This document shows positions 43,786 through 53,413 of a DNA stretch of 64,000 nt, in pieces. The translations under genes and the position numbers were made by a program. The notes under the pieces were generated by a model. That model made no database searches. It saw only the letters and a program-made list of their open reading frames with translations, and was not told where the DNA came from. The DNA lies in NCBI GenBank assembly GCA_964403415.1, contig CAYOFF010000001.1, positions 69,834 to 133,833 of the forward strand, read 5' to 3'. Source of the stretch: an uncultured Candidatus Peribacteria bacterium. Lineage in GTDB: Bacteria > Patescibacteriota > Gracilibacteria > Absconditabacterales > Absconditicoccaceae. The first letter of the stretch is position 1. Every line of letters starts with the position of its first letter.

Positions 43786-43910
43786 GTAACACGTGATCAA
43801 ACAAAATGTACCAAAAGTATAGGCAAATAGTGGGGTTTTGTCAAATTCTTTCTTCTAATATTCAGTCTTTCTCGGTTGCTTTTTTTGACAAAAACGTGAT
43901 AGATGTTCTC

Positions 43911-44918
43911 ATGACACTCTTTCAGTCACCTCTTCGAAAAACTATTTCACAGGAGATTTACAAAAAATCTCTTTTTGAGGTTTCTATTGAAGGAAAACCC
44001 TATCGAGGTGTGGCAAAATTCATGAAACGTTTTGGCGCTAGAACCGCTCGATATATGGTTCATGGGGTAGAATTCTCCAATACCGACGCATTTTCTCCCG
44101 ACCTAGCAGAAAGTATAGCTAGACTCAAAAGAGACCTCAATCATCACTGGTGAGATATCTTTGTGCAGTTAGGTATAACAAATATCCTAGACGCTCGCCC
44201 TACAGCCGACGTAAAAATAGCAGAAAATAGCCAAGAAATTACAAAAAAACACATGTATCAAGCATCTGATCTTCTTCAACGATATAGTATGCGCCCCTCT
44301 TGGAGGGAACATATGCCACAGGCCACTATTATTTTTGATCTTTCTCAGCCCGTACAATACATCTTGGATGGATTTTCTACTTCCGGAAAAAGATTTCTAA
44401 AAAAGGCCGAGAAAGAGGATCTTTCATTCGAGATTGCATCCAACCCAAGCGATCGAGAGGCATTCTATAGAATACGGTACACTATGTCATTTGACAAAGA
44501 CTTCAACATTATCTCACTTGAGACCTTCATGCAGCTTATGAACTATCTTGAGAGTACACATCAGGGAGCATTATTCCTCTGCAAGAAGAATTGAGCGATT
44601 GTCAGTGGCAGTCTCTGCCTCTTTTTGGGCGCATCTCTTATTTACCTCTACGGAGCCACAAATAGGCAATGGGGGGATATTTGATGACACTACTGGCTTA
44701 CTACCAAGATTATAGAATGGGCCCATGATCAGCATGTTTATACCAGTTTTGATCTTCTTGGGGTCTCAGCAGCACGAGATCATGAGCATCACCACCTTCA
44801 GTGAGTTACTAGATTTAAACAGGCGTTTGGAGGGACAACCGTCTCGTATGTTGGGAATTACGACATTATCTTCAACCCACTTCTCTATACGTGATTCTCC
44901 CGATGGAAGAAAAAATAA
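43911..44918 (+). CDS. FemAB-family peptidoglycan interpeptide-bridge aminoacyltransferase (FemX/MurM-like)
   Basis: MTLFQSPL..., ...LIYLYGATN..., L[G]VTRFKQAFGG. 335 aa from ATG 43911, TAA at 44916-44918. An upstream in-frame ATG at 43806 is possible but looks non-coding. Confidence 0.7.
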
Positions 44919-45028
44919 ATCCACATTGCGAACCGCCATCAACACGCCGCGCATACTATTCTTTATAAGACAATATATTATCTAATAATTCTATCACTCC
45001 GTGATAACGATAGGTTTGCGGATTTTAC

Positions 45029-45056
45029 TGTAAAAAAATTGTAAAAAAATTGTAAA
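45029..45056 (-). repeat. Three 11-bp-spaced copies of the TTTACA motif in inverted orientation
   Basis: TGTAAA starts at 45029, 45040 and 45051 (CTGTAAAAAAATTGTAAAAAAATTGTAAAAGG). Confidence 0.8.
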
Positions 45057-45180
45057 AGGATATTACGTGGTCATCCAAAGGGCCAAAAGGTCTCAAACCC
45101 CAAAAACAAAACCACCCAAACCACTCATCCATTGTCACCTACCAAGGGACAAGGAACGAAATAAATCTATGGAAGACGGT

Positions 45181-45231
45181 TGAGGGATAACAAAGATCTA
45201 TAAACAGCTTATATATCTTTGTTATCCCTCA
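45181..45231. repeat. Perfect 17-bp inverted repeat with a 17-nt spacer
   Basis: TGAGGGATAACAAAGAT (45181-45197) and ATCTTTGTTATCCCTCA (45215-45231). Confidence 0.9.
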
Positions 45232-45251
45232 CGGCAGGGTATCCTTGCATA

Positions 45252-45288
45252 AGTCTTCCAACTCAATTGGAAGACTGTACGCATGCGT
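45252..45288. repeat. 10-bp-stem hairpin followed by a 10-bp perfect palindrome
   Basis: AGTCTTCCAA-CTCAA-TTGGAAGACT (45252-45276), then ACGCATGCGT (45279-45288). Confidence 0.9.
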
Positions 45289-45500
45289 TACAGTCTTTTC
45301 TTTTTACACTTTTTTTACAAAGACTTTACAGCGCTTTACATATTTTTTACAGCTGCTTTACATTTTCTTTACAGTATTTTACATTTTTTATACACTCACT
45401 TTACAGTAACTTTACAAAAAAATATATACTTTACAGTATTTTTACAATTATTTTACATTTCTTTTACACCTCTTTACAGAAATTTTACAGCAGCTTTACA
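45287..45500 (+). repeat. Array of 18 TTTACA(G/A/T/C) motifs, plus one degenerate copy, phased at 10-11 bp
   Basis: Motif starts: 45303, 45314, 45325, 45335, 45346, 45357, 45368, 45378, 45389 (TATACA), 45400, 45411, 45430, 45441, 45452, 45463, 45473, 45484, 45495; GTTACA at about 45288. Spacings: 11,11,10,11,11,11,10,11,11,11,19,11,11,11,10,11,11. Confidence 0.9.
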
Positions 45501-45554
45501 ATAAAGCTTTTTATGTCCTCTCTTCCGCCCCTTCTTTGTATATACTTACTCTAT

Positions 45555-46655
45555 CTAATTGACTAATAACTCTTTCATAATTTTTGTATACGTCTTTTTT
45601 ATTGGATCTTGAGATGAGATATTTCGACTTTTTTTATACCCAATATGCTGTTCCAAAAATCTTTCTATACCCTTCTCCATATCATTGTTTTGCTCTATAC
45701 AAACATCTCAGTAGTGCACTTCGTACCGTCTTGCGTTTCACAGTTGGTGGTTTCCTCCTGTAAATGGTGTTGGAACAATGCAGGATTTTATGCCAAACAG
45801 TTTTTGTTCCGCCAGAGAGGTCACCCCTCCGCGCGTAATAGCTATGTCTGCATTTTTGTACAACATACCCATTTTTGCCGGTGAAAGATACTCATAAGTG
45901 AAAACATTTGGATATTCCGAAAAAACTTCTTTGTATTGCATATTTTTGGTCCCCAGTGTTACTATAAACTGGAAGTTGTGAGACCATACTCATGTCCTGT
46001 CCCATATTTTCTTCATAGCATCAAAGAGGGCGCCAGCTCATTGGGATCATCAAAGAACAAGTACAACTGTTTTATCTGTCTTTTTAGGTTCAACAAAATC
46101 TCTCGGCGGGTCCTCCCACAGTTGAAGAGAAAGTATTTGTCCCACATGCTCGCTCTTTCACTTATATTTCTCTCACTGGTGTTCAAATCATGTAAATACC
46201 TTTGATGCAAACGGATATAATAGGCGATTTGCCAAGCCTGGAAACAGATCGGACTCATGAATAACAACTTTTATTCAAAGCACCCATGCCGCAAAACACA
46301 CAGGAAATGAAACATATCCTCATTTACCGAAGACAACATCTATTTTATGTCTCCTGAGCTCCCATCGTGCGCATCCAATACCCATACCCACGTTTAACAT
46401 ATCTTTTATATTCTGCCACATCACCCTTAGTCCCCAGTATCTCCTTATTTTACCTACTGGAATCTCGACAAAATGCACCCATGAAATCTCCTCGCAAGCC
46501 TTTTGTTCTAGGGAGTTTCCCTCCCCAAACCAGTATATGTCATTGCATTTTGACATAAATTCATTAGAGGTATGCACGTAGTTGAGAAGTGAGACAAGCG
46601 GCGTTATATGCCCACCAGATCCTCATCAGGCTACCGCTATCGTTGTTTTTCTCAT
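45555..46655 (-). CDS. murG: UDP-GlcNAc:MurNAc-(pentapeptide)-PP-undecaprenol GlcNAc transferase
   Basis: IAVA[G][G]GSGGHITPL, [G]GYVSFPVCFAA, IHESDLFPGLANR, VLVL[G][G]SQ[G]AG, ITRGGVTSLAEQ, GGNHQL[G]NA. ATG 46655-46653, TAG 45557-45555, 366 aa. Confidence 0.9.
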
Positions 46656-46701
46656 TATTATACCGTCTCTACTAAAAACCTTTTGCCTGCATACCTATTT
46701 T

Positions 46702-46779
46702 GGTCGATTAGCTCAGCTGGTCGAGAGCGCCACATTGACATTGTGGAGGTCAGTGGTTCGAATCCACTATCGACCACCA
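46702..46779 (+). tRNA. tRNA-Val (anticodon GAC)
   Basis: GGTCGATTAGCTCAGCTGGTCGAGAGCGCCACATTGACATTGTGGAGGTCAGTGGTTCGAATCCACTATCGACCACCA. Full cloverleaf with encoded CCA. Confidence 0.9.
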
Positions 46780-46922
46780 GATTAGCATCAAAGCCCTATT
46801 TCAACATATTTTCTTCTCATTTCTTTAGGCAAACATCAGCGCCTTGTCTCTCCGTAGGGGCAATTTTTTTGTGGGAGCATTCTGCGCGCATTCTATCTAA
46901 GATCATTACAAAGACAACGCCT

Positions 46923-47624
46923 ATGTGAGCCCTCTCTTCTATTTTTGATACCATTTTTCCTATACAGTGCGTTTTGTGCCAAGATTATGGGGCATATCTT
47001 TGTCGTAGCTGCAAAAAAACACTAGAAGTCCATCCGCCCCTCTGTCCCATTTGCTATCACCCCTCCCCTCATTACCAGACATGTTCTAAATGCATGCGTC
47101 AAAATCCCCTCAAATGATGCATTATAGGATTTTGATATTGATGAGCTATCAAAAAAATGATTCACCTCCTCAAATATAAGCATATCTCTACCGCCTCCAT
47201 CTTTCTTGCAAATCAACTTGCCTGGCATCTTCGCTCCCATCCTCTTATCTCTACCAAAGACACTCCTGTTCTTCTCTGCCCTATACCAACCCACCGACGA
47301 AAAGTTCTTCTCAAAAGAGGCTACGATCACATAAAACTTCTCACTAAGCAAATTTCTATAGATTGTACCATTCCAGAACAATTTCTCCTTACAAAATCTC
47401 GCTTTACTCGTAGCCAGGTAGGGCTTTCTAGGCAGCAAAGATATCATAATCTCTCCTGATCGTTTCAAATTACCTCTTGAACATCTCTCATTTGAAATGA
47501 GACAATTCTTCTTGTAGACGACCTCTTCACCAGTTGAGCAACACTTGTCACAGCAGCGAATACACTACTCGCTCGTCGACCTACTTTACAAATATGGGGC
47601 CTTGTTGTGAGTAGGCACATATAA
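46923..47624 (+). CDS. comFC: ComF-family protein (ComFC-type phosphoribosyltransferase with N-terminal zinc finger)
   Basis: CVLCQDYGAYLCRSC...CPICYHP...CSKC; PIPTHRRKVLLKRGYDH; SQVGLSRQQR; PRT motif ILLVDDLFTS[G]ATL. TAA at 47622-47624. Confidence 0.8.
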
Positions 47625-47695
47625 TAAAACTGAGGATTTTTTTCTTTCTATCAAGCCATTTGTACACTTTTGTCCATCTCTTGTCTACATCGTCT

Positions 47696-47744
47696 TTTAC
47701 AGTTTTTTTACAGAAATTTTACAGCGTTTTACAGTTTTTTTACA
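47696..47744 (+). repeat. Second phased TTTACA array (5 copies, same orientation as the large array)
   Basis: TTTACA starts at 47696, 47707, 47718, 47728 and 47739 (spacing 11,11,10,11). Degenerate TTGTACA/TTGTCCA/TTGTCTA copies at about 47660-47690 keep the same period. Confidence 0.85.
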
Positions 47745-47752
47745 CTTTAAGG

Positions 47753-48961
47753 TTACGCTATCACATTTGGCAACACTTGAATGACTACGGATTTGGAATA
47801 GAATCTTCCAACCAATGATACCATGTAATCGCTTGGCACAAGATGGATCTTGACACATTTTTGAAGGATTCTTCTAATAACACACAGTGATTGATATTTA
47901 CACCATAGTATTGGACGTCGATATCGCGATTTTTTTGATGCCCCGAAAAACCCTTCAAATCAAACCGGGTAATGCAATTGATCCTCTTCATATACTAGAG
48001 AGGGGAATGGATGAAATAATCAAAAATCATGATACATGATCATATGTATGCATTTTCTGCGTGTACCAACCCATAAGGGCAGCCAACCCAAATACCTATG
48101 AACACTGTTTCGGTAAATAATATCTGGTCTACAACGAACTATTTCGAGATATAGGCGCAGAGCCTCCCAAACATTACATACTGTTGCAAGCAGCCCAATC
48201 TTTCTCACACCCCCCCCATATAGATTCCCACCAAAGATACTTGCCTCGTATCCTTCCTCATTTAACATATCTTTTACTTCGTAGACATGACTTTCAATTC
48301 ATGCTATTTTTGTTGCATAGTCCGAAACGATAAGTATGCGATTAATATCATTAACAGATTTGGAAGCACTCAAAATGTTTGAAAAATTGGCTTTCCGCTC
48401 TTTACGCGAGTAGCGTAGAGCACGTTGTTGCGCTAGTTGGCGGTATCTCAGCGCCATGTCATCATCAAATGCTTCTAGAAAATATTTAATGGCTACAAAA
48501 AGCCTTTCTTCATGTGTAAGACCCTTATAGTTGTCGATAGAGCAGTGTTCGTCCAACAAAAACTGCTGTGTTCATCCTTTATTGAATCCCAACACAGGAA
48601 TACCATGCCGCAAAGCCTCTCCTGAGTTTAGGCCAAATGTTTCCAGGAATAACGATGGCATCAGTACTATATCAACCTTTTCACGCTTCATAAATGTAAA
48701 AACATCTCACTTTGGTTGCATACCGTAATACGAAACCTGGAATGATTTTGTCTCCATAATACATAATTCAAGTTCTTTTCTATATGATCAATCAGAGAAA
48801 AAACTGAAGCGGCAGCGATCTTCTCACTCCTTAGCAAGACGCTTTATGACTGAAAGCACTAGATCTATACCTTTTTCTTTTTCTAGTCTACTATAAAACA
48901 AAAAATGCACCTGTTTTCACATAAGCCTTAAGACGAGTAAAATCCAAGTACAAATTCTCAT
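47753..48961 (-). CDS. GT4/GT-B glycosyltransferase with swapped domain order: C-terminal Glycos_transf_1-type lobe first, N-terminal lobe second
   Basis: One frame, with TGA only, from ATG 48961 (alternative 48922) to TAA 47755-47753. The first half contains LEKEKGIDLVLSVIKRL...VDIVLMPSLFLETFGLNSGEALRHGIPVL (C-lobe signature). The second half begins NRILIVSDYATKIA[G]IESHVYEVKDMLNEEGYE (typical GT4 N-terminus) and ends ...KIHLVPSDYM.... Confidence 0.6.
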
Positions 48962-49599
48962 TTTAGTGGCAATTTTTCTTGCTCCACCAACACAAGCATC
49001 TCCTCTGCTGAGCCCTGTATTTTTTGTTCAAACATCTTGGAAAGCTCTCTGTGTACAACAATCTTTCCTGTGTACCCTATAGCCAAAAGCTCCTGAAATG
49101 TTTTTTTAACTCTATGTACGGACTCGTAGACAAACACCGGATGCTCATTATTCATTATTCGCTCAAAGAAGCTTTTTCTTCATTTTTTTGCTGGAACAAA
49201 TCCTCCAAACGTAAATATTGAGGTATCACAGGGTGTCCCGACAATAGCAGGTATAAGGGCATTTGCTCATGGTAGTATTTCAAATGGTAGTCAAGATTCT
49301 CGAGCTAGCTTGATGAGCATTTTTCATGGGTCGGAAAGTCATGGAGTTCACGCCTCAGAAATAACGCCACATGATGTCTTTTCGATACACGACACATAAA
49401 AGGCCAATGAGCGATCGTCACTATGACTTGTTAGTGCATAGAATTTTTTATCTTGATAGGGGATATCATACATACGAAACAAATTTTTTACCGTTCTTGT
49501 GTCTTCACAAAAGAATACGTCTAGCTCACGCAAAAGCCTTAACGCCCTCAAGGTAATATCCTCTTTATTGCCAATTGGCGTAGGAATAAACGAGAGCAT
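48928..49599 (-). CDS. rsmI: 16S rRNA (cytidine1402-2'-O)-methyltransferase
   Basis: LSFIPTPIGNKEDITLRALRLL...FCEDTR, ISEA[G]TP[G]LSDP[G], ILP[G]ANAL, FTFGGFVPAKK. ATG 49599-49597. TAA at 48930-48928 after reading through the TGA at 48958. Confidence 0.85.
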
Positions 49600-49648
49600 A
49601 GATTGCCATTATGTGTTGCTAAAGGGTCGCCGCACACCAAAATGTACT

Positions 49649-49722
49649 AGGCACCGATGGGATTCGAACCCATGAACCGAGGTTTTGCAGACCTGTCCGT
49701 TAGACCACTCCGACACGGTGCC
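49649..49722 (-). tRNA. tRNA-Cys (anticodon GCA)
   Basis: Minus strand reads GGCACCGTGTCGGAGTGGTCTAACGGACAGGTCTGCAAAACCTCGGTTCATGGGTTCGAATCCCATCGGTGCCT. CCA is not encoded. One C-C mismatch at the base of the anticodon stem. Confidence 0.8.
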
Positions 49723-49852
49723 ATGGCTTCCACTATAGATATTTACTATGTATATGCAACATACAGCATCACATTTCCTCGCATCCACAATCAATAACTA
49801 TCATAACAACATCTTCTTAAGACATGTCTAGATATCTAGATAATTGGTATAC

Positions 49853-50734
49853 CTAAAGATCACTTCGCAAATACTCTGGATAAACTCACTCCGCCACAAG
49901 TTTTGCGATCAAAGCCTCTACAAATGGCTTATCTTCCTTATATGTCACTCCGCATCGAATATCCTTACTCACCAAGACATCACATTGCACATCTCCTCTG
50001 TTGATAAGTGTGTCAATTACTGTTGGAATAAAGAACTCTTGAGAAGATCCTCATTGAATCCCCGCCAAAAACTCTTGGAACTGCTCTTCTAGATGAGCGA
50101 ATAAGGCTGGGTGACATCATCGGAAATTCATTGAAACAATTTCATCATCTGCAAACATAACCCCCTCCTCATCTCTTATTATTCCGTCGTCATCGCGCTT
50201 AATTTTTAAACATTCTTTTACTGAAGCGAGTATCATGGATCACTGCGTTGAATCACCGATATGACATACTCACCTATTTACCGTGCCCCCTTCTGACAAA
50301 GTATTTTTGAGTGTATATCCTACCATACACATATGATGTTCATCGACTGTCATTAGTTTTTGAGCTATTTGTCTGAATCCATCTACTCCATAATAATCGT
50401 CTGCATTAATAACAGCAAACGGCTCAGATATAACATCTTTTGCGCACAAAATAGCGTGTCCTGTCCCCCATGGCTTGGTGCGTCATTCGGGAATCTGTTG
50501 AAACACATACTGCACCTCCAAAAGACGCGCAAATGTCTCATGAAACCTCTCCTTAAACTCTTGTGCGAATTCCTCACGGATAATAAATACAACCTTCCCA
50601 AATCATGCTCTTACTGCATCATAAACCGCATACTCAAGTAGCGTCTCTCCATGGGGTCAAAACGTATCTAGTTGTTTTATTCATCCATAACGGCTCCCCA
50701 TTCATGCCGCTAAAATTAGTAGCGTAGGCTTCAT
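49853..50734 (-). CDS. Sugar-phosphate nucleotidyltransferase (NTP_transferase fold)
   Basis: MKPTLLILAA[G]MGSRY[G][G]IKQLD (G-rich NTP loop), KPWGTGHAI, FAVINADDYYG. ATG 50734-50732, TAG 49855-49853; all lines checked. Confidence 0.7.
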
Positions 50735-50785
50735 TTTCTATAAATCAATATCTAAAATTAGTTATCAGCAGTATAACTCAACAAA

Positions 50786-51580
50786 TTAATACATCGATGT
50801 TTTCACAATATCTATGTTTGCCTGTAACCGAAGCTCTCTTGTCCCAACATCTCGCATTTTGTATGGGCTTATATATGGAAGACATGTAAAATCCGCAAAG
50901 AGTTTCTTAAATACTAAACCCACATCAAACTCTCCCGATACATCGTCGGGTTGTAGGCTTTTTGTGTACTCAAAAAATGCCTTGGGGAAAATATACACGC
51001 CCGTCATAATTAGGTTGGAGGGAGCATATTCTTTTTTTGGTTTTTCGACCATATCTACTATCACATTATCTACAATTTTCACAACCCCGTATTTTTCAAT
51101 CTCATCGTGAGGCTTCTCTTCTAATGCATATATTGGGTTTCATGTATCAAGATGGAGTTGTATAATTTCCTTGTAGAACTCTGGTTGAAAGAAATTGTCT
51201 CCGAGGGAAACAAGGAAAAACTCTTCATTTACCCGTGCCTCCGCTTGACATGCGGCATGCACCCATCCGAGCTGTTCTTTTTGCTTAATAAACGTCATGT
51301 TTGCAAGATTTTTTGGCTTGTTTATGAGCTCCAGTAGTTCTGTTTTATTTTTCTTTTGGAGCAACATTTCAAGCTCATAGTTTTTATCAAAATAGTCCTC
51401 CAAAGCTCCTTTTCACTGTGATGTAATCATCACTATATCACGTATTCATGCTCATGCTAATCATTCTACAATATACTGTATTACTGGCTTATTTCATACT
51501 GGTAACATCTCTTTTGGAATAGTTTTGGTAATAGGTAACATTCTTGTCCCATACCCTGCCGCAGGAATAATTGCCTTCAT
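50786..51580 (-). CDS. galU: UTP--glucose-1-phosphate uridylyltransferase
   Basis: MKAIIPAAGYGTRMLPITKTIPKEMLPV[G]NKP, EDYFDKNYELE, FIKQKEQLGWVHA, LGDNF, VEKPKKEYAPSNLIMTGVYIF. TAA at 50788-50786. Confidence 0.85.
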
Positions 51581-51583
51581 CTG

Positions 51584-53161
51584 CTACGTATCTATAAAAA
51601 ACTGTTTGGGTCTATACTGTAGAGCCTCTGCCATATGATGCGCATTGATTATAGTAGCTTGCTCAAGATCCGCTATTGTTCTAGCGACCCTCAATAGTTT
51701 GTGCGTGATCCTCGCAGACAGATGTAATCTTTTCGATGCTTCTTTCAATAGCCTTTCTGATTTTTCATCACATTTTACATATGTCCATAGGTTACGTACA
51801 CTTAAATACGCATTTGCATAGATATTTTCACCCTTATATCTTCTTTGCTGAATTTCATATGCCTGTTGTACCGAACTCGCATATTGTTGGTACCTCTCTA
51901 TGGGTGGAGGTCAGAGAAGGACATCTACCTCCTGTCTAGCAACCGACAACAGTAGATCACATCTTTCACGTCGCGGTCACGATACTCTTGCTTGGTACTT
52001 TTTTACTTCATGGGTACTACATACGCATGCGTGCTCTGGATCTCCATAGTATCAACAAGGGCACGCATTCATAGCCGCTATAACCAAACATTGTGTAGGA
52101 TATCTAACAGATCACTGCGCACGGGATATCATAATATATCCGTCCTCTAGTGGTTGCCTTAGTGCTTCTAGTGTTTCTCTATTAAACTCTGGAAGTTCGT
52201 CCAAAAATAAGACTCAATGATGAGCCAAACTCACCTCTCAGGGGAGTAATGATTGTCATCATCACACAATAGCAACTTTTGTGACTGTATGATGCACTTG
52301 TCTAAATGGTCTTCTTGTTATCATCGGGCAGTTTGATGATAACTTTCCTGCGACAGAGTATATTTGACTTACCTCAAGTGTCTGCTCAAACGACAATCAT
52401 GGTAATATACTAGCTACTCACTGTGCTAAAAGCGTTTTTCATGTTCATGGAGGACTTTTTAGGATACAATTATGCGCACCTGCAGCCGCAATTACTAGCG
52501 CTCTTTTTGTCTTCTCATGTCCTTGAATATCAGAAAATGTTATTTGAGTTTGCGAATTTTCATGAGACATACTTACAATTACTGCGTTTTGTGCAACACC
52601 ACCTGTTCTGATTTGATCGTATATACTTACTAATGGGGCTTCTCACCTCAGCATCTGTACAAATGCTTCAAAGTTTTTGTACGCGTATATAGAAATATCT
52701 GGAACGTATTTAATCTCTTCCACATTACCATAGGGCACAAAAAAATGCGTATACCCCTCTCTGCATGCAGACAAAACTGATGGCAATACTCATGAGACCG
52801 GTCTTATCTCACCATCAAGTCATAATTCTCCTATAAAGATACTTGTCGCACAAATCGTTCTTATAGACTGTTCGCACGGGCACAACAGCATAAATAATGC
52901 TGTTGCGAGAGCCAAATCAAATCTTGTTCCTGTTTTCTTGAGATCAGAAGGAGAAAGGTTCAGTATAATCTTACGAGGAGGCATTACTATTCAGATACGT
53001 TTGAACACCGCTCTTATTCTCTCTTTTGATTCTCTAATTGCAGTATCTGGTAGTCATATAATTTCTATACCAGGCAGCGCGCTTGCCTGATCTGCCTCAA
53101 TTTGAACCTCATATCAAACTAGCCCTATATTCATATAGGTTTTTATTTTTGGTATTTGCAT
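51584..53161 (-). CDS. comM: Mg-chelatase-like AAA+ ATPase ComM/YifB
   Basis: Walker A SPP[G]T[G]KT, HH[G][45 protein letters not shown] 53161 (alternative 53134). TAG at 51586-51584, 3 nt before the galU start. Confidence 0.85.
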
Positions 53162-53413
53162 GTATTGAACTAATGAAAAATTATTACACGCCGCCTGCAG
53201 GCAGTTGTGTGTGATGTTTTTTTGTATTTGCAAATTGTCTATATATGGGCAACGACCGTGCACGGAAGAATGAATTGGACCAGTGTTGTACTTTTGTTTT
53301 GTATTTTTGTTTCTTCCCTTTGCCCCTTGAGCATACACAAAAAAAAATTGTCTGCAAGCATGACATTTCTGCTTATTTTAGCCGATATCACATATATCTA
53401 TTTTCCCCTCTTT

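What the first reader, a model, noticed from the sequence alone, without database searches (positions are those of the whole stretch)
47753..48961. Glycosyltransferase with inverted lobe order (C-lobe then N-lobe): circular permutation or rearrangement scar
A single 402-codon frame, interrupted only by TGA, starts inside the rsmI tail and encodes the GT-B C-terminal lobe first (EKGIDLVL...PSLFLETFGLNSGEALRHGIPVL). It continues without any start codon into a canonical GT4 N-terminus (RILIVSDYATKIA[G]IESHV...GYE) and the rest of the N-lobe, stopping at the TTTACA array.

Duplication followed by loss of the outer halves is the textbook route to circular permutation. The result could be a functional permuted GT-B enzyme, which would be unusual, or a dead fusion left by recombination at the repeat array.
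Basis: partly seen in the sequence, partly recalled or inferred. Interest (0 to 1): 0.6.

Follow-up and report, generated by a model that had tools for sequence, protein, structure and literature searches.

The report
Circularly permuted GT4 glycosyltransferase family
This gene encodes an intact, transcribed sugar-transferring enzyme whose two halves sit in swapped order, and the swap is the normal state of a whole enzyme family in Gracilibacteria and Absconditabacteria, not an assembly error or a dead gene.

Summary
Under code 25 (TGA=Gly), the minus-strand ORF 47753-48961 encodes a GT4 C-lobe followed by a GT4 N-lobe. The true start is probably the ATG at 48922, giving 389 aa.

It is not a scar or a misassembly.
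- Relatives occur in at least 99 species-level genomes and 367 clusters (50% identity) at E<=1e-30; about 72 of the fetched loci carry the same C-then-N order in one ORF.
- Independent DNA contigs and a metatranscriptome contig span the lobe junction.
- AlphaFold2 gives pLDDT 93.6 and pTM 0.90.
- The donor-binding motifs (GRLxxEKG, EX7E) are conserved.

Moving the N-lobe half to the front makes the family profile align end to end with canonical GT4s (hhalign E=5e-42, 363 columns). The native order aligns over the C-lobe only (163 columns).

The same family also contains two canonical-order members and several split forms, including one genome with both halves at separate loci.

Two gene contexts are conserved: Wzy_C–GT, and comM–galU–NTP-transferase–rsmI–GT–comFC (this window). 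The TTTACA array is unrelated to the lobe order.

The closest precedent is the reverse-order Alg13–Alg14 fusion of amoebozoa (GT28). No GT4 case was found in the literature searched. Substrates and the evolutionary route remain inferred.

The parts
47753..48922 (-). Permuted GT4 glycosyltransferase gene: 389 codons plus stop under code 25, with 8 in-frame TGA=Gly codons.
   Evidence: translation; homologues start at this Met; AF2 pLDDT 93.6, pTM 0.90; hhalign test of the permutation.
48371..48922 (-). C-lobe (residues 1-184): the nucleotide-sugar-binding Rossmann lobe plus the helices that end a canonical GT-B protein.
   Evidence: Pfam Glycos_transf_1, 58 bits. Family profile positions 1-178 match the C-lobe through to the very C-terminus of GlgA (249-427 of 440), MshA (246-423 of 438) and TarM (323-490 of 493).
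48869..48892 (-). Motif SRLEKEKG (family consensus GRLxxEKG). Its Arg and Lys are the diphosphate-binding pair of GT4 enzymes.
   Evidence: R12, E16 and K17 are at least 90% conserved in the 56-sequence alignment A2 and align with the invariant R219/K224 of canonical GT4s. The role of these residues comes from general GT4 knowledge.
48617..48643 (-). EX7E motif (ETFGLNSGE) within the family signature LMPSLFLETFGL.
   Evidence: Read directly from the sequence. S90, L93, E94, T95 and F96 are invariant. The motif aligns with the invariant E291/E299 of canonical GT4s.
48341..48370 (-). New junction (SASKSVNDIN) that links the former C-terminal helix to the former N-terminal strand. It holds the in-frame TTG nearby.
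   Evidence: AF2 secondary structure: helix 173-186, coil, then strand 195-202. Length is variable among homologues. DNA and RNA contigs span it.
47756..48370 (-). N-lobe (residues 185-389): the acceptor-side Rossmann lobe, ending at the former inter-lobe linker motif (VLPNVIA; family consensus LPHF).
   Evidence: Pfam Glyco_transf_4 scores 20.4 bits here and 29-40 bits in relatives. The lobe folded alone gives pLDDT 90.4. Best Foldseek hits are PimA, sucrose-phosphate synthase (including its isolated N-lobe), BshA, Gtf3/GtfC and HepE. hhalign aligns it to canonical N-lobes.
48293..48304 (-). Gly-rich loop after the N-lobe's first strand (AGIE; consensus GGIE). G208 is encoded by TGA.
   Evidence: E210 is invariant. 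The loop aligns with GGxE of canonical GT4s.
47999..48034 (-). Family signature YHDFGLFHPFPS with invariant His298.
   Evidence: H298 is invariant and P305/P307 are at least 90% conserved. H298 aligns with the nearly invariant His105 of canonical GT4s.
48923..48961 (-). 13-codon upstream extension of the ORF (MRICTWILLVLRL) that overlaps the rsmI 3' end. Probably not translated.
   Evidence: No homologue has it. P0002 (97% identical) and P0003 start at Met14.
48928..49599 (-). rsmI (16S rRNA 2'-O-methyltransferase; TP_methylase domain), immediately upstream of the GT gene.
   Evidence: Pfam PF00590, 75.5 bits. The rsmI-GT adjacency is conserved in about 15 loci.
46935..47624 (+). comFC-like gene (double zinc ribbon plus phosphoribosyltransferase domain), convergent with the GT gene.
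   Evidence: Pfam. The convergent GT/comFC arrangement is conserved in relatives.
47696..47744 (.). TTTACA repeat array in the convergent gap between the GT gene and comFC. It is not part of the enzyme.
   Evidence: Five copies in the window; none in the same gap of most syntenic relatives and only scattered single copies in three larger gaps.
49853..51580 (-). Two sugar-1-phosphate nucleotidylyltransferase genes upstream on the same strand: an unassigned NTP-transferase (49853-50734) and galU (50786-51580). They could supply the donor sugar nucleotide.
   Evidence: Pfam and NCBIfam (galU 224 bits, below the equivalog cut-off of 326.8). The cluster is conserved in context-B relatives.

Best explanation
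The gene encodes a functional, naturally circularly permuted GT-B glycosyltransferase of the GT4 type.

**Shown**
- The polypeptide begins at the first strand of the nucleotide-sugar-binding C-lobe.
- It runs through the helices that normally end a GT-B protein and crosses by a short new linker into the first strand of the acceptor-side N-lobe.
- It ends where the canonical inter-lobe linker would begin.
- The canonical termini are therefore joined and the canonical hinge linker is cut.
- The model is confidently predicted as one compact unit, and each half on its own matches a GT-B lobe.
- This order is the dominant form of a family restricted to Gracilibacteria, Absconditabacteria (SR1) and MAGs labelled Peribacteria.
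- The same family also holds rare canonical-order members and split (two-gene) forms.

**Inferred**
- The two lobes face each other across a catalytic cleft as in other GT-B enzymes, joined by one covalent crossover instead of two; no coordinates were available to check this.
- The enzyme binds an NDP-sugar through the GRLxxEKG Arg/Lys pair and the EX7E glutamates of the C-lobe.
- It transfers the sugar with retention of configuration to an acceptor held by the N-lobe (GGIE loop, His298).
- The donor may be UDP-glucose or another UDP-hexose made by the neighbouring galU and NTP-transferase genes.
- The acceptor is probably a membrane-associated or lipid-linked intermediate of a cell-surface glycan. 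In about half of the family the gene directly follows, and is probably co-transcribed with, a Wzy_C-family (O-antigen ligase/polymerase-like) membrane protein gene.
- The permutation probably arose by gene fission and re-fusion in the other order rather than by tandem duplication. The direction of that change is not resolved.
For: **Lobe order**
- Pfam and lobe-specific HMMs give C-then-N in the window and in about 72 loci.

**Permutation test (hhalign against 12 canonical GT4s)**
- Un-permuted family profile: probability 100%, E=4.9e-42, 363 columns, query 10-387 to template 13-394, running straight across the artificial junction.
- Native-order profile: 163 columns, C-lobe only, E=1e-25.
- Canonical GT4s cover 80-82% of the un-permuted query, whereas family members cover only about 50%.

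**Structure**
- AF2 on the whole protein: pLDDT 93.6, pTM 0.90.
- Foldseek hits are all GT-B enzymes but align only 175-200 columns with TMq about 0.38, as expected when a sequential aligner meets a permutant.
- The N-lobe folded alone hits PimA, sucrose-phosphate synthase, BshA and Gtf3.

**Conservation**
- 59 full-length homologues down to 26% identity.
- 367 representatives at E<=1e-30, of which about 110 of the top 150 match end to end.
- 99 species genomes.
- Invariant or nearly invariant R12, E16, K17, E94, D201, E210, R276, H298, K342.

**Not an artefact, and expressed**
- One 4,130-nt contig covers the whole stretch.
- An 868-nt DNA contig and a 689-nt metatranscriptome contig both span the junction, with no joints.

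**Other architectures in the family**
- Canonical members P0192/L089 and P0204/L090: N at 1-199, C at 209-409.
- Split forms: stand-alone N-lobe genes in L004, L007, L047, L066, L080 and L084, and a stand-alone C-lobe in L087 from the same MAG as L080.

**Context**
- Ferredoxin(-)-Wzy_C-GT in about 40 loci.
- comM-galU-NTP-transferase-rsmI-GT-comFC(-)-murG in about 15 loci, including the window.
Against: - No activity, substrate or product is known for any family member.
- The window protein's own N-lobe Pfam score (20.4 bits) is below the curated cut-off of 28.5.
- No coordinates were available, so a non-sequential superposition and the cleft geometry were not checked directly.
- The link to Wzy_C is seen in the other clade, not in this window. 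No Wzy_C gene lies within the 64 kb, and the rest of the genome could not be searched.
- NCBIfam gives no subfamily assignment.
- The phylogenies do not resolve whether the canonical or the permuted order is ancestral.
Confidence: 0.82

Rival explanations
1. Dead fusion or rearrangement scar: a pseudogene made of the 3' half of one GT4 gene and the 5' half of another, left by recombination at the TTTACA array.
For: The lobe order is abnormal, and a repeat array abuts the 3' end.
Against: - The same architecture occurs in about 72 loci from many genomes at 25-53% identity, with intact frames and invariant catalytic motifs.
- The AF2 model is confident.
- The gene is transcribed.
- The array is absent from syntenic relatives.
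Confidence: 0.02
2. Assembly artefact: a chimeric or collapsed join of two normal GT4 genes.
For: None beyond the odd lobe order.
Against: - Contigs assembled independently from other studies cover the whole gene or span the junction, with 0-11 substitutions and no joints.
- P0002 (97% identical, 389 aa) comes from another assembly.
- No locus shows tandem GT4 genes.
Confidence: 0.01
3. The single ORF yields two working polypeptides: a C-lobe, and an N-lobe from an internal start such as TTG at Leu184. These would act as a heterodimer like Alg13/Alg14, so the fusion itself would be incidental.
For: - Split relatives show that the two halves can exist as separate genes.
- An in-frame TTG precedes the N-lobe.
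- L077 has an in-frame stop between the lobes.
Against: - The frame is continuous in about 72 loci with a short junction of variable sequence and no conserved internal start or ribosome-binding site.
- AF2 models the junction as an ordered helix-coil-strand connection with pLDDT of 84 or higher.
Confidence: 0.05
4. A folded but non-catalytic GT-like protein, for example a scaffold or carbohydrate-binding partner of Wzy_C.
For: - No assay exists.
- The N-lobe is divergent.
- Cutting the hinge linker could impair domain closure.
Against: The residues that are invariant are the ones GT4 enzymes use for donor binding and catalysis: the R/K pair, the EX7E motif and the N-lobe His.
Confidence: 0.08
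5. Rival for the origin only: the permuted order arose by tandem duplication of a canonical gene, in-frame fusion and loss of the outer halves.
For: It is the textbook mechanism. Canonical-order members do exist in the family.
Against: - No tandem or partially duplicated (N-C-N-C, C-N-C) intermediates were seen among 80 loci or the top 150 representatives.
- Stand-alone halves do exist.
- One split form (L084) groups with the canonical pair (97 SH-aLRT in the quick tree, 85/67 in the careful tree).
- The known GT-B precedent, Alg13-Alg14, is explained by split and re-fusion (PMC8993221).
Confidence: 0.25

Closest known systems
Canonical GT4 retaining glycosyltransferases (PimA, MshA, BshA, WaaG, sucrose-phosphate synthase; Pfam Glyco_transf_4 plus Glycos_transf_1)
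   Same: - Two Rossmann-like lobes.
- The GRxxxxKG Arg/Lys pair, the EX7E motif, the Gly-rich loop after the N-lobe's first strand, and the N-lobe His.
- End-to-end profile alignment once the halves are swapped.
   Different: - The lobe order is C then N.
- The canonical hinge linker is replaced by free termini.
- The canonical termini are joined by a linker of about 8-10 residues.
- Family-specific motifs: MYHDLGLFHPFPS, HLVPS and LMPSLFLETFGL.
Reverse-order Alg13-Alg14 fusion proteins of Entamoeba histolytica and Dictyostelium discoideum (GT28/MurG-type GT-B; reported in PMC8993221, citing Bickel 2005 and Averbeck 2007)
   Same: - A GT-B enzyme with the C-lobe encoded before the N-lobe in one polypeptide.
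- Its family also has split (Alg13 + Alg14, EpsE/EpsF) and canonical (MurG, Agl24) forms.
- The reverse order is explained by gene split and re-fusion.
   Different: - A different GT family: inverting GT28 rather than GT4. No Glyco_tran_28_C or Alg14 hit was obtained here.
- Eukaryotic, and found in few lineages.
- Here the reversed order is the dominant state across a bacterial class-level group.
Stand-alone GT-B C-lobe proteins (e.g. Archaeoglobus WbaZ-1, PDB 2f9f; the isolated PGS domain of Pyrococcus glycogen synthase)
   Same: The C-lobe folds autonomously. 2f9f and PGS are among the best sequence and structure hits. Family relatives L087 and L088 encode a C-lobe alone.
   Different: In the window gene the C-lobe is covalently followed by its N-lobe.

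Membership tests
GT4 / GT-B glycosyltransferase | C-terminal-type lobe: Pfam Glycos_transf_1 above the curated cut-off | tested here: met
   58 bits against a cut-off of 26.4, residues 16-137 of the 402-aa ORF.
GT4 / GT-B glycosyltransferase | N-terminal-type lobe: Pfam Glyco_transf_4 | tested here: inconclusive
   The window protein scores 20.4 bits, below the cut-off of 28.5. Relatives pass: P0011 39.8, P0036 37.7, P0005 29.1 bits. hhalign aligns the lobe to canonical N-lobes, and Foldseek on the lobe alone hits GT4 N-lobes.
GT4 / GT-B glycosyltransferase | Donor-binding motifs: the Arg/Lys pair (GRxxxxKG) and EX7E | tested here: met
   R12, K17 and E94...E102 are present and conserved. They align with the invariant R219, K224, E291 and E299 of canonical GT4s.
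GT4 / GT-B glycosyltransferase | Canonical order: N-lobe, linker, C-lobe, C-terminal helix | tested here: not met
   The order is C-lobe, helices, N-lobe. It therefore works like a GT4 but does not have the family's canonical architecture.
GT4 / GT-B glycosyltransferase | Two-Rossmann-lobe fold | tested here: met
   AF2 pLDDT 93.6 and pTM 0.90, with alternating strand/helix pattern in both halves. All top Foldseek hits are GT-B enzymes.
GT4 / GT-B glycosyltransferase | Retaining glycosyl transfer from an NDP-sugar | not testable with these tools
   Needs an enzyme assay.
Circular permutant of a known fold | Swapping the two sequence halves restores end-to-end collinearity with canonical homologues | tested here: met
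   hhalign: 363 columns and E=4.9e-42 after the swap, against 163 columns and E=1e-25 in native order.
Circular permutant of a known fold | Close homologues with the canonical order exist | tested here: met
   P0192 and P0204 have N at 1-199 and C at 209-409, score E=1e-67 to 1e-74 against the family profile, and sit on the independent contigs L089 and L090.
Circular permutant of a known fold | Non-sequential 3D superposition over both lobes | not testable with these tools
   Model coordinates are not exposed. Foldseek aligns sequentially only.
Split GT-B (Alg13/Alg14, EpsE/EpsF type) | The lobes lie on separate polypeptides | tested here: not met
   The window has a single ORF, and DNA and RNA contigs span the junction. 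The feature is met by relatives L080 + L087, L004, L007, L066 and L084.
Pseudogene / rearrangement scar | Disrupted frame, no conservation, no expression | tested here: not met
   The frame is intact under code 25, the gene is conserved in at least 99 species genomes, and it is present in metatranscriptome contigs.

The most novel reading that the evidence does not exclude
GT-B lobes behave as re-orderable modules in nature. Within one GT4 family, permuted, split and canonical architectures interconvert. The permuted, single-crossover form would be the ancestral and dominant state of a whole bacterial class, and the canonical-order members would be secondary re-fusions of split halves. This gives a ready-made natural series for testing how the hinge linker and the C-terminal crossover helix control GT-B domain closure. 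The enzyme would also be the dedicated partner of a Wzy_C-type protein in an uncharacterised surface-glycan pathway (possibly glycosylation of pilin or S-layer protein) of these episymbiotic or predatory bacteria.
Probability: 0.3. Interest if true: 0.7.

Novelty: new variant of a known kind. Interest (0 to 1): 0.55.

Why it matters
GT-B enzymes work by closing two lobes around donor and acceptor, and the hinge linker and the C-terminal crossover helix are thought to govern that motion. This family is a widespread natural case in which the hinge linker is cut and the termini are fused. Canonical and split relatives exist alongside it, so the role of lobe connectivity can be tested directly and used as a guide for engineering split or permuted glycosyltransferases.

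There is also a practical annotation point. Domain-order-based annotation and sequential structure aligners see only half of these proteins. Many database entries are mistranslated (Trp for Gly under code 4) or fragmented (code 11).

Finally, the tight Wzy_C–GT pairing points to an unstudied surface-glycan pathway in Gracilibacteria and Absconditabacteria, including a human oral SR1 taxon.

Tried and rejected
- **Whole-genome search.** I could not look for Wzy_C or other GT genes elsewhere in the window's genome.
- **Model coordinates.** They are not exposed to the Python box, so no permutation-aware superposition and no cleft-distance measurements were possible.
- **HMMER against PDB.** Both the native and the un-permuted profile reached only the C-lobe and a little across the junction, because the N-lobes are too divergent. 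hhalign against a canonical GT4 alignment settled the question instead.
- **Quick N-lobe tree.** It placed the canonical and split forms nested inside the permuted clade. I rejected that reading because constrained trees had higher likelihood. The careful tree puts the canonical pair plus L084 as sister to all others with moderate support, and AU tests reject neither rooting. The C-lobe tree is poorly resolved and disagrees. The polarity is left open.
- **P0078 as a 'stand-alone N-lobe'.** This turned out to be an artefact of code-11 gene calling on an intact permuted gene (L006).
- **Link between the TTTACA array and the lobe order.** Rejected.
- **NCBIfam.** It gave only weak C-lobe hits and no functional subfamily.
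- **Literature.** Searches for a permuted GT4 or GT-B found only the Alg13-Alg14 reverse fusions.

Full report
**What is in the sequence**

The window uses TGA as a sense codon. Read with table 11, every gene in the region is fragmented. With TGA read through, long ORFs appear.

TGA is Gly (table 25), not Trp:
- The neighbouring nucleotidyltransferase reads AAGMGSRYGG and MurG reads GGGSGGH.
- In the gene of interest, 4 of the 8 TGA codons fall on columns whose family consensus is Gly.
- NCBI records of relatives translate to their deposited proteins only with TGA=G.

Pfam places Glycos_transf_1, the GT-B C-lobe, at residues 16-137 (58 bits). It places Glyco_transf_4, the N-lobe, at residues 221-337 (20.4 bits, below the cut-off).

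All homologues begin at the position of Met14. That is the ATG at 48922, 5 nt after the rsmI stop codon, so the real product is most likely 389 aa.

**Is it real?**

A search of 5.8 billion proteins found 59 hits. Nearly all are 365-427 aa and cover 90-97% of the query, down to 26% identity. The only names given are 'glycosyltransferase' from Candidatus Gracilibacteria or Absconditabacterales.

In the alignment every member has the same layout:
- It starts 1-5 residues before the C-lobe strand carrying GRLxxEKG.
- It carries LMPSLFLETFGL...E, the EX7E motif.
- It has KILLVSDY..GGIE, a typical GT4 N-terminus, in mid-protein.
- It ends at ...HLVPS...LPHF, the GT4 motif that normally leads into the inter-lobe linker.

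An exhaustive HMMER search of 1.84 billion cluster representatives gave 367 hits at E<=1e-30. About 110 of the top 150 match the profile end to end in one stretch.

A scan of one genome per species found relatives in 99 genomes. All are Gracilibacteria, Absconditabacteria/SR1 (including human oral taxon HOT-345) or MAGs labelled Peribacteria or Patescibacteria. Lobe-specific HMMs on code-25 ORFs call about 72 of the fetched loci as C-then-N in a single ORF.

The stretch is also present in metagenomes from at least 12 studies and in two metatranscriptomes. One 4,130-nt contig covers the whole of 47500-49300. An 868-nt DNA contig and a 689-nt RNA-derived contig both cross the lobe junction at 48370, with no joints. 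Misassembly and pseudogene readings are therefore excluded.

**Is it a circular permutation of a GT4?**

*Sequence profiles*
- The family profile's first 178 positions match the C-lobe of solved GT4/GT5 enzymes right up to their C-termini: GlgA 249-427 of 440, MshA 246-423 of 438, TarM 323-490 of 493. The normal end of the protein therefore lies mid-chain here.
- I moved the N-lobe half in front of the C-lobe half in 25 members (alignment A3). Against 12 canonical GT4s (alignment A5), hhalign then gives probability 100%, E=4.9e-42 and 363 aligned columns. The alignment runs from query 10-387 to template 13-394, straight through the artificial junction.
- The native-order profile aligns over only 163 columns, the C-lobe alone.
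- In the large database, canonical GT4s cover 80-82% of the un-permuted query, whereas family members cover only about 50%.

*Structure*
- AlphaFold2 on the 56-sequence alignment gives pLDDT 93.6 and pTM 0.90.
- Every top Foldseek hit in PDB is a GT-B enzyme (glycogen synthase, sucrose-phosphate synthase, GtfA, MshA, PimA, SdgB). They align over only 175-200 columns with TMq about 0.38, as expected when a sequential aligner meets a permutant.
- The second half modelled alone (pLDDT 90.4) is closest to PimA, sucrose-phosphate synthase (including its isolated N-lobe), BshA, Gtf3/GtfC and HepE.

*Conserved residues*

The invariant or nearly invariant residues are the ones GT4 enzymes use. These are R12 and K17 of GRLxxEKG, E94 and E102 of EX7E, E210 of the Gly-rich loop, and His298. 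They align with the invariant R219, K224, E291 and E299 and the nearly invariant H105 of canonical GT4s.

**Other architectures in the same family**

- *Canonical order.* Two proteins, P0192 and P0204, have the N-lobe at 1-199 and the C-lobe at 209-409, joined by a linker of about 16 residues. They keep the family's own motifs. They lie on independent contigs in ordinary single-copy contexts.
- *Stand-alone N-lobe genes.* These are genuine. In L004 a stop codon lies 4 codons upstream of the ATG, and the 350-nt upstream gap has no C-lobe coding capacity. Others are L007, L047, L066, L080 and L084.
- *Stand-alone C-lobe gene.* L087 comes from the same MAG as L080, so that genome carries both halves at separate loci.
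- *Interrupted adjacent C and N.* Three loci (L069, L077, L083) show this. They may be pseudogenes, sequencing errors or adjacent split genes.
- *An artefact.* One apparent split form (P0078/L006) was produced by code-11 gene calling.

**Evolutionary direction**

A quick N-lobe tree nested the canonical and split forms within the permuted clade. Constrained trees had higher likelihood, so I do not trust that tree.

The careful ML tree places the canonical pair plus split form L084 as sister to all other members (support 75/83). AU tests reject neither rooting (p=0.33-0.39). The C-lobe tree is weakly resolved and disagrees.

One result is robust. Six stand-alone N-lobes form a clade with three permuted context-B genes (99/93), which implies at least one secondary fission of a permuted gene.

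No tandem or partially duplicated intermediates were seen. Together with the split forms, this makes fission and re-fusion somewhat more likely than the textbook route of duplication and truncation. This is inference.

**Context and likely function**

tblastn of neighbouring proteins over all loci shows two conserved arrangements:
- *Context A, about 40 loci:* ferredoxin(-), a Wzy_C-family membrane protein gene, and the GT gene, abutting or overlapping.
- *Context B, about 15 loci including this window:* comM, galU, NTP-transferase, (tRNA-Cys), rsmI, GT, comFC(-), murG.

From this I infer a retaining hexosyl transfer from an NDP-sugar to a membrane-associated acceptor in a surface-glycan pathway. 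The donor may be a UDP-hexose made by the adjacent galU or NTP-transferase genes. No substrate is established. NCBIfam gives no subfamily, and no Wzy_C gene lies within this window.

The TTTACA array next to the stop codon is absent from the same gap in syntenic relatives. In several of them the GT and comFC ends are only 0-11 nt apart, so the array is unrelated to the lobe order.

**Comparison with what is known**

In the paper library I found no description of a permuted GT4. The closest precedent is in the GT28 (MurG/Alg13-Alg14) family. Reverse-order Alg13-Alg14 fusions are known in Entamoeba and Dictyostelium. They are attributed to a gene split followed by re-fusion 'with gene order inversion' (PMC8993221; PMC4973528).

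The kind of event is therefore known. This case differs in three ways:
- It is in GT4.
- It is bacterial and is the dominant state across a class-level lineage.
- All three topologies occur in one family.

**Verdict**

The circular-permutation reading is supported, and the scar and misassembly readings are refuted. I rate it a new variant of a known kind, of moderate-to-good interest for glycosyltransferase mechanism, protein-topology evolution and the annotation of code-25 genomes.

Noticed in passing
window 48204-48211: The window has a run of eight C here. Contigs from four independent runs (three DNA, one RNA) all read A at 48210 and 48211. This changes one residue (YGGGV in the window, YGGFV in P0002) without shifting the frame. 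It may be a strain variant or a homopolymer error in the window assembly.
   Followed up: partly
loci L001, L002, L023-L088 (about 40 loci), e.g. L002:4339-7116: A conserved three-gene module: a small ferredoxin (Fer4_13/15) on the opposite strand, then a Wzy_C-family membrane protein (about 290-424 aa), then the permuted GT, with the last two abutting or overlapping. In L002 a type IV pilin-like (N_methyl) gene follows. This suggests an uncharacterised glycan ligase/polymerase pathway.
   Followed up: partly
protein database entries P0002-P0058; L006:3700-5500: Most database copies of this family are translated with Trp at TGA (code 4), for example 'FFWRLDQEKW' where the correct reading is 'FFGRLDQEKG'. 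In a JGI record the gene is chopped into 75-, 69- and 209-aa pieces by code-11 gene calling. Family annotation is systematically degraded in code-25 lineages.
   Followed up: yes
L069:2612-3953, L083:618-1981, L077:580-1740: In three genomes the C-lobe and N-lobe are adjacent but interrupted: a frame change in L069 and L083, and an in-frame stop in L077. These could be pseudogenes, sequencing errors or adjacent split genes.
   Followed up: no
L060:4719-5630: A stand-alone N-lobe ORF carries an extra N-terminal extension of about 90 residues of unknown nature.
   Followed up: no
window 46572-47624 and 46702-46779: The long code-25 ORF listed for comFC (350 aa) runs over tRNA-Val (46702-46779, + strand). 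The real comFC start must lie downstream, at about 46935. tRNA-Cys (49649-49722, -) sits between the NTP-transferase gene and rsmI.
   Followed up: partly
window 47625-47752 compared with the same gap in L006, L013, L017, L030, L031, L042, L046, L061, L081: The five phased TTTACA copies between the convergent GT and comFC genes are specific to this lineage. The same gap in syntenic relatives is 0-11 nt in several cases, or longer with no array.
   Followed up: yes
window 43806-53338: A conserved neighbourhood in the Absconditabacterales-type clade mixes cell-envelope genes (FemAB-like, murG, galU, NTP-transferase, the GT) with competence genes (comFC, comM).
   Followed up: partly
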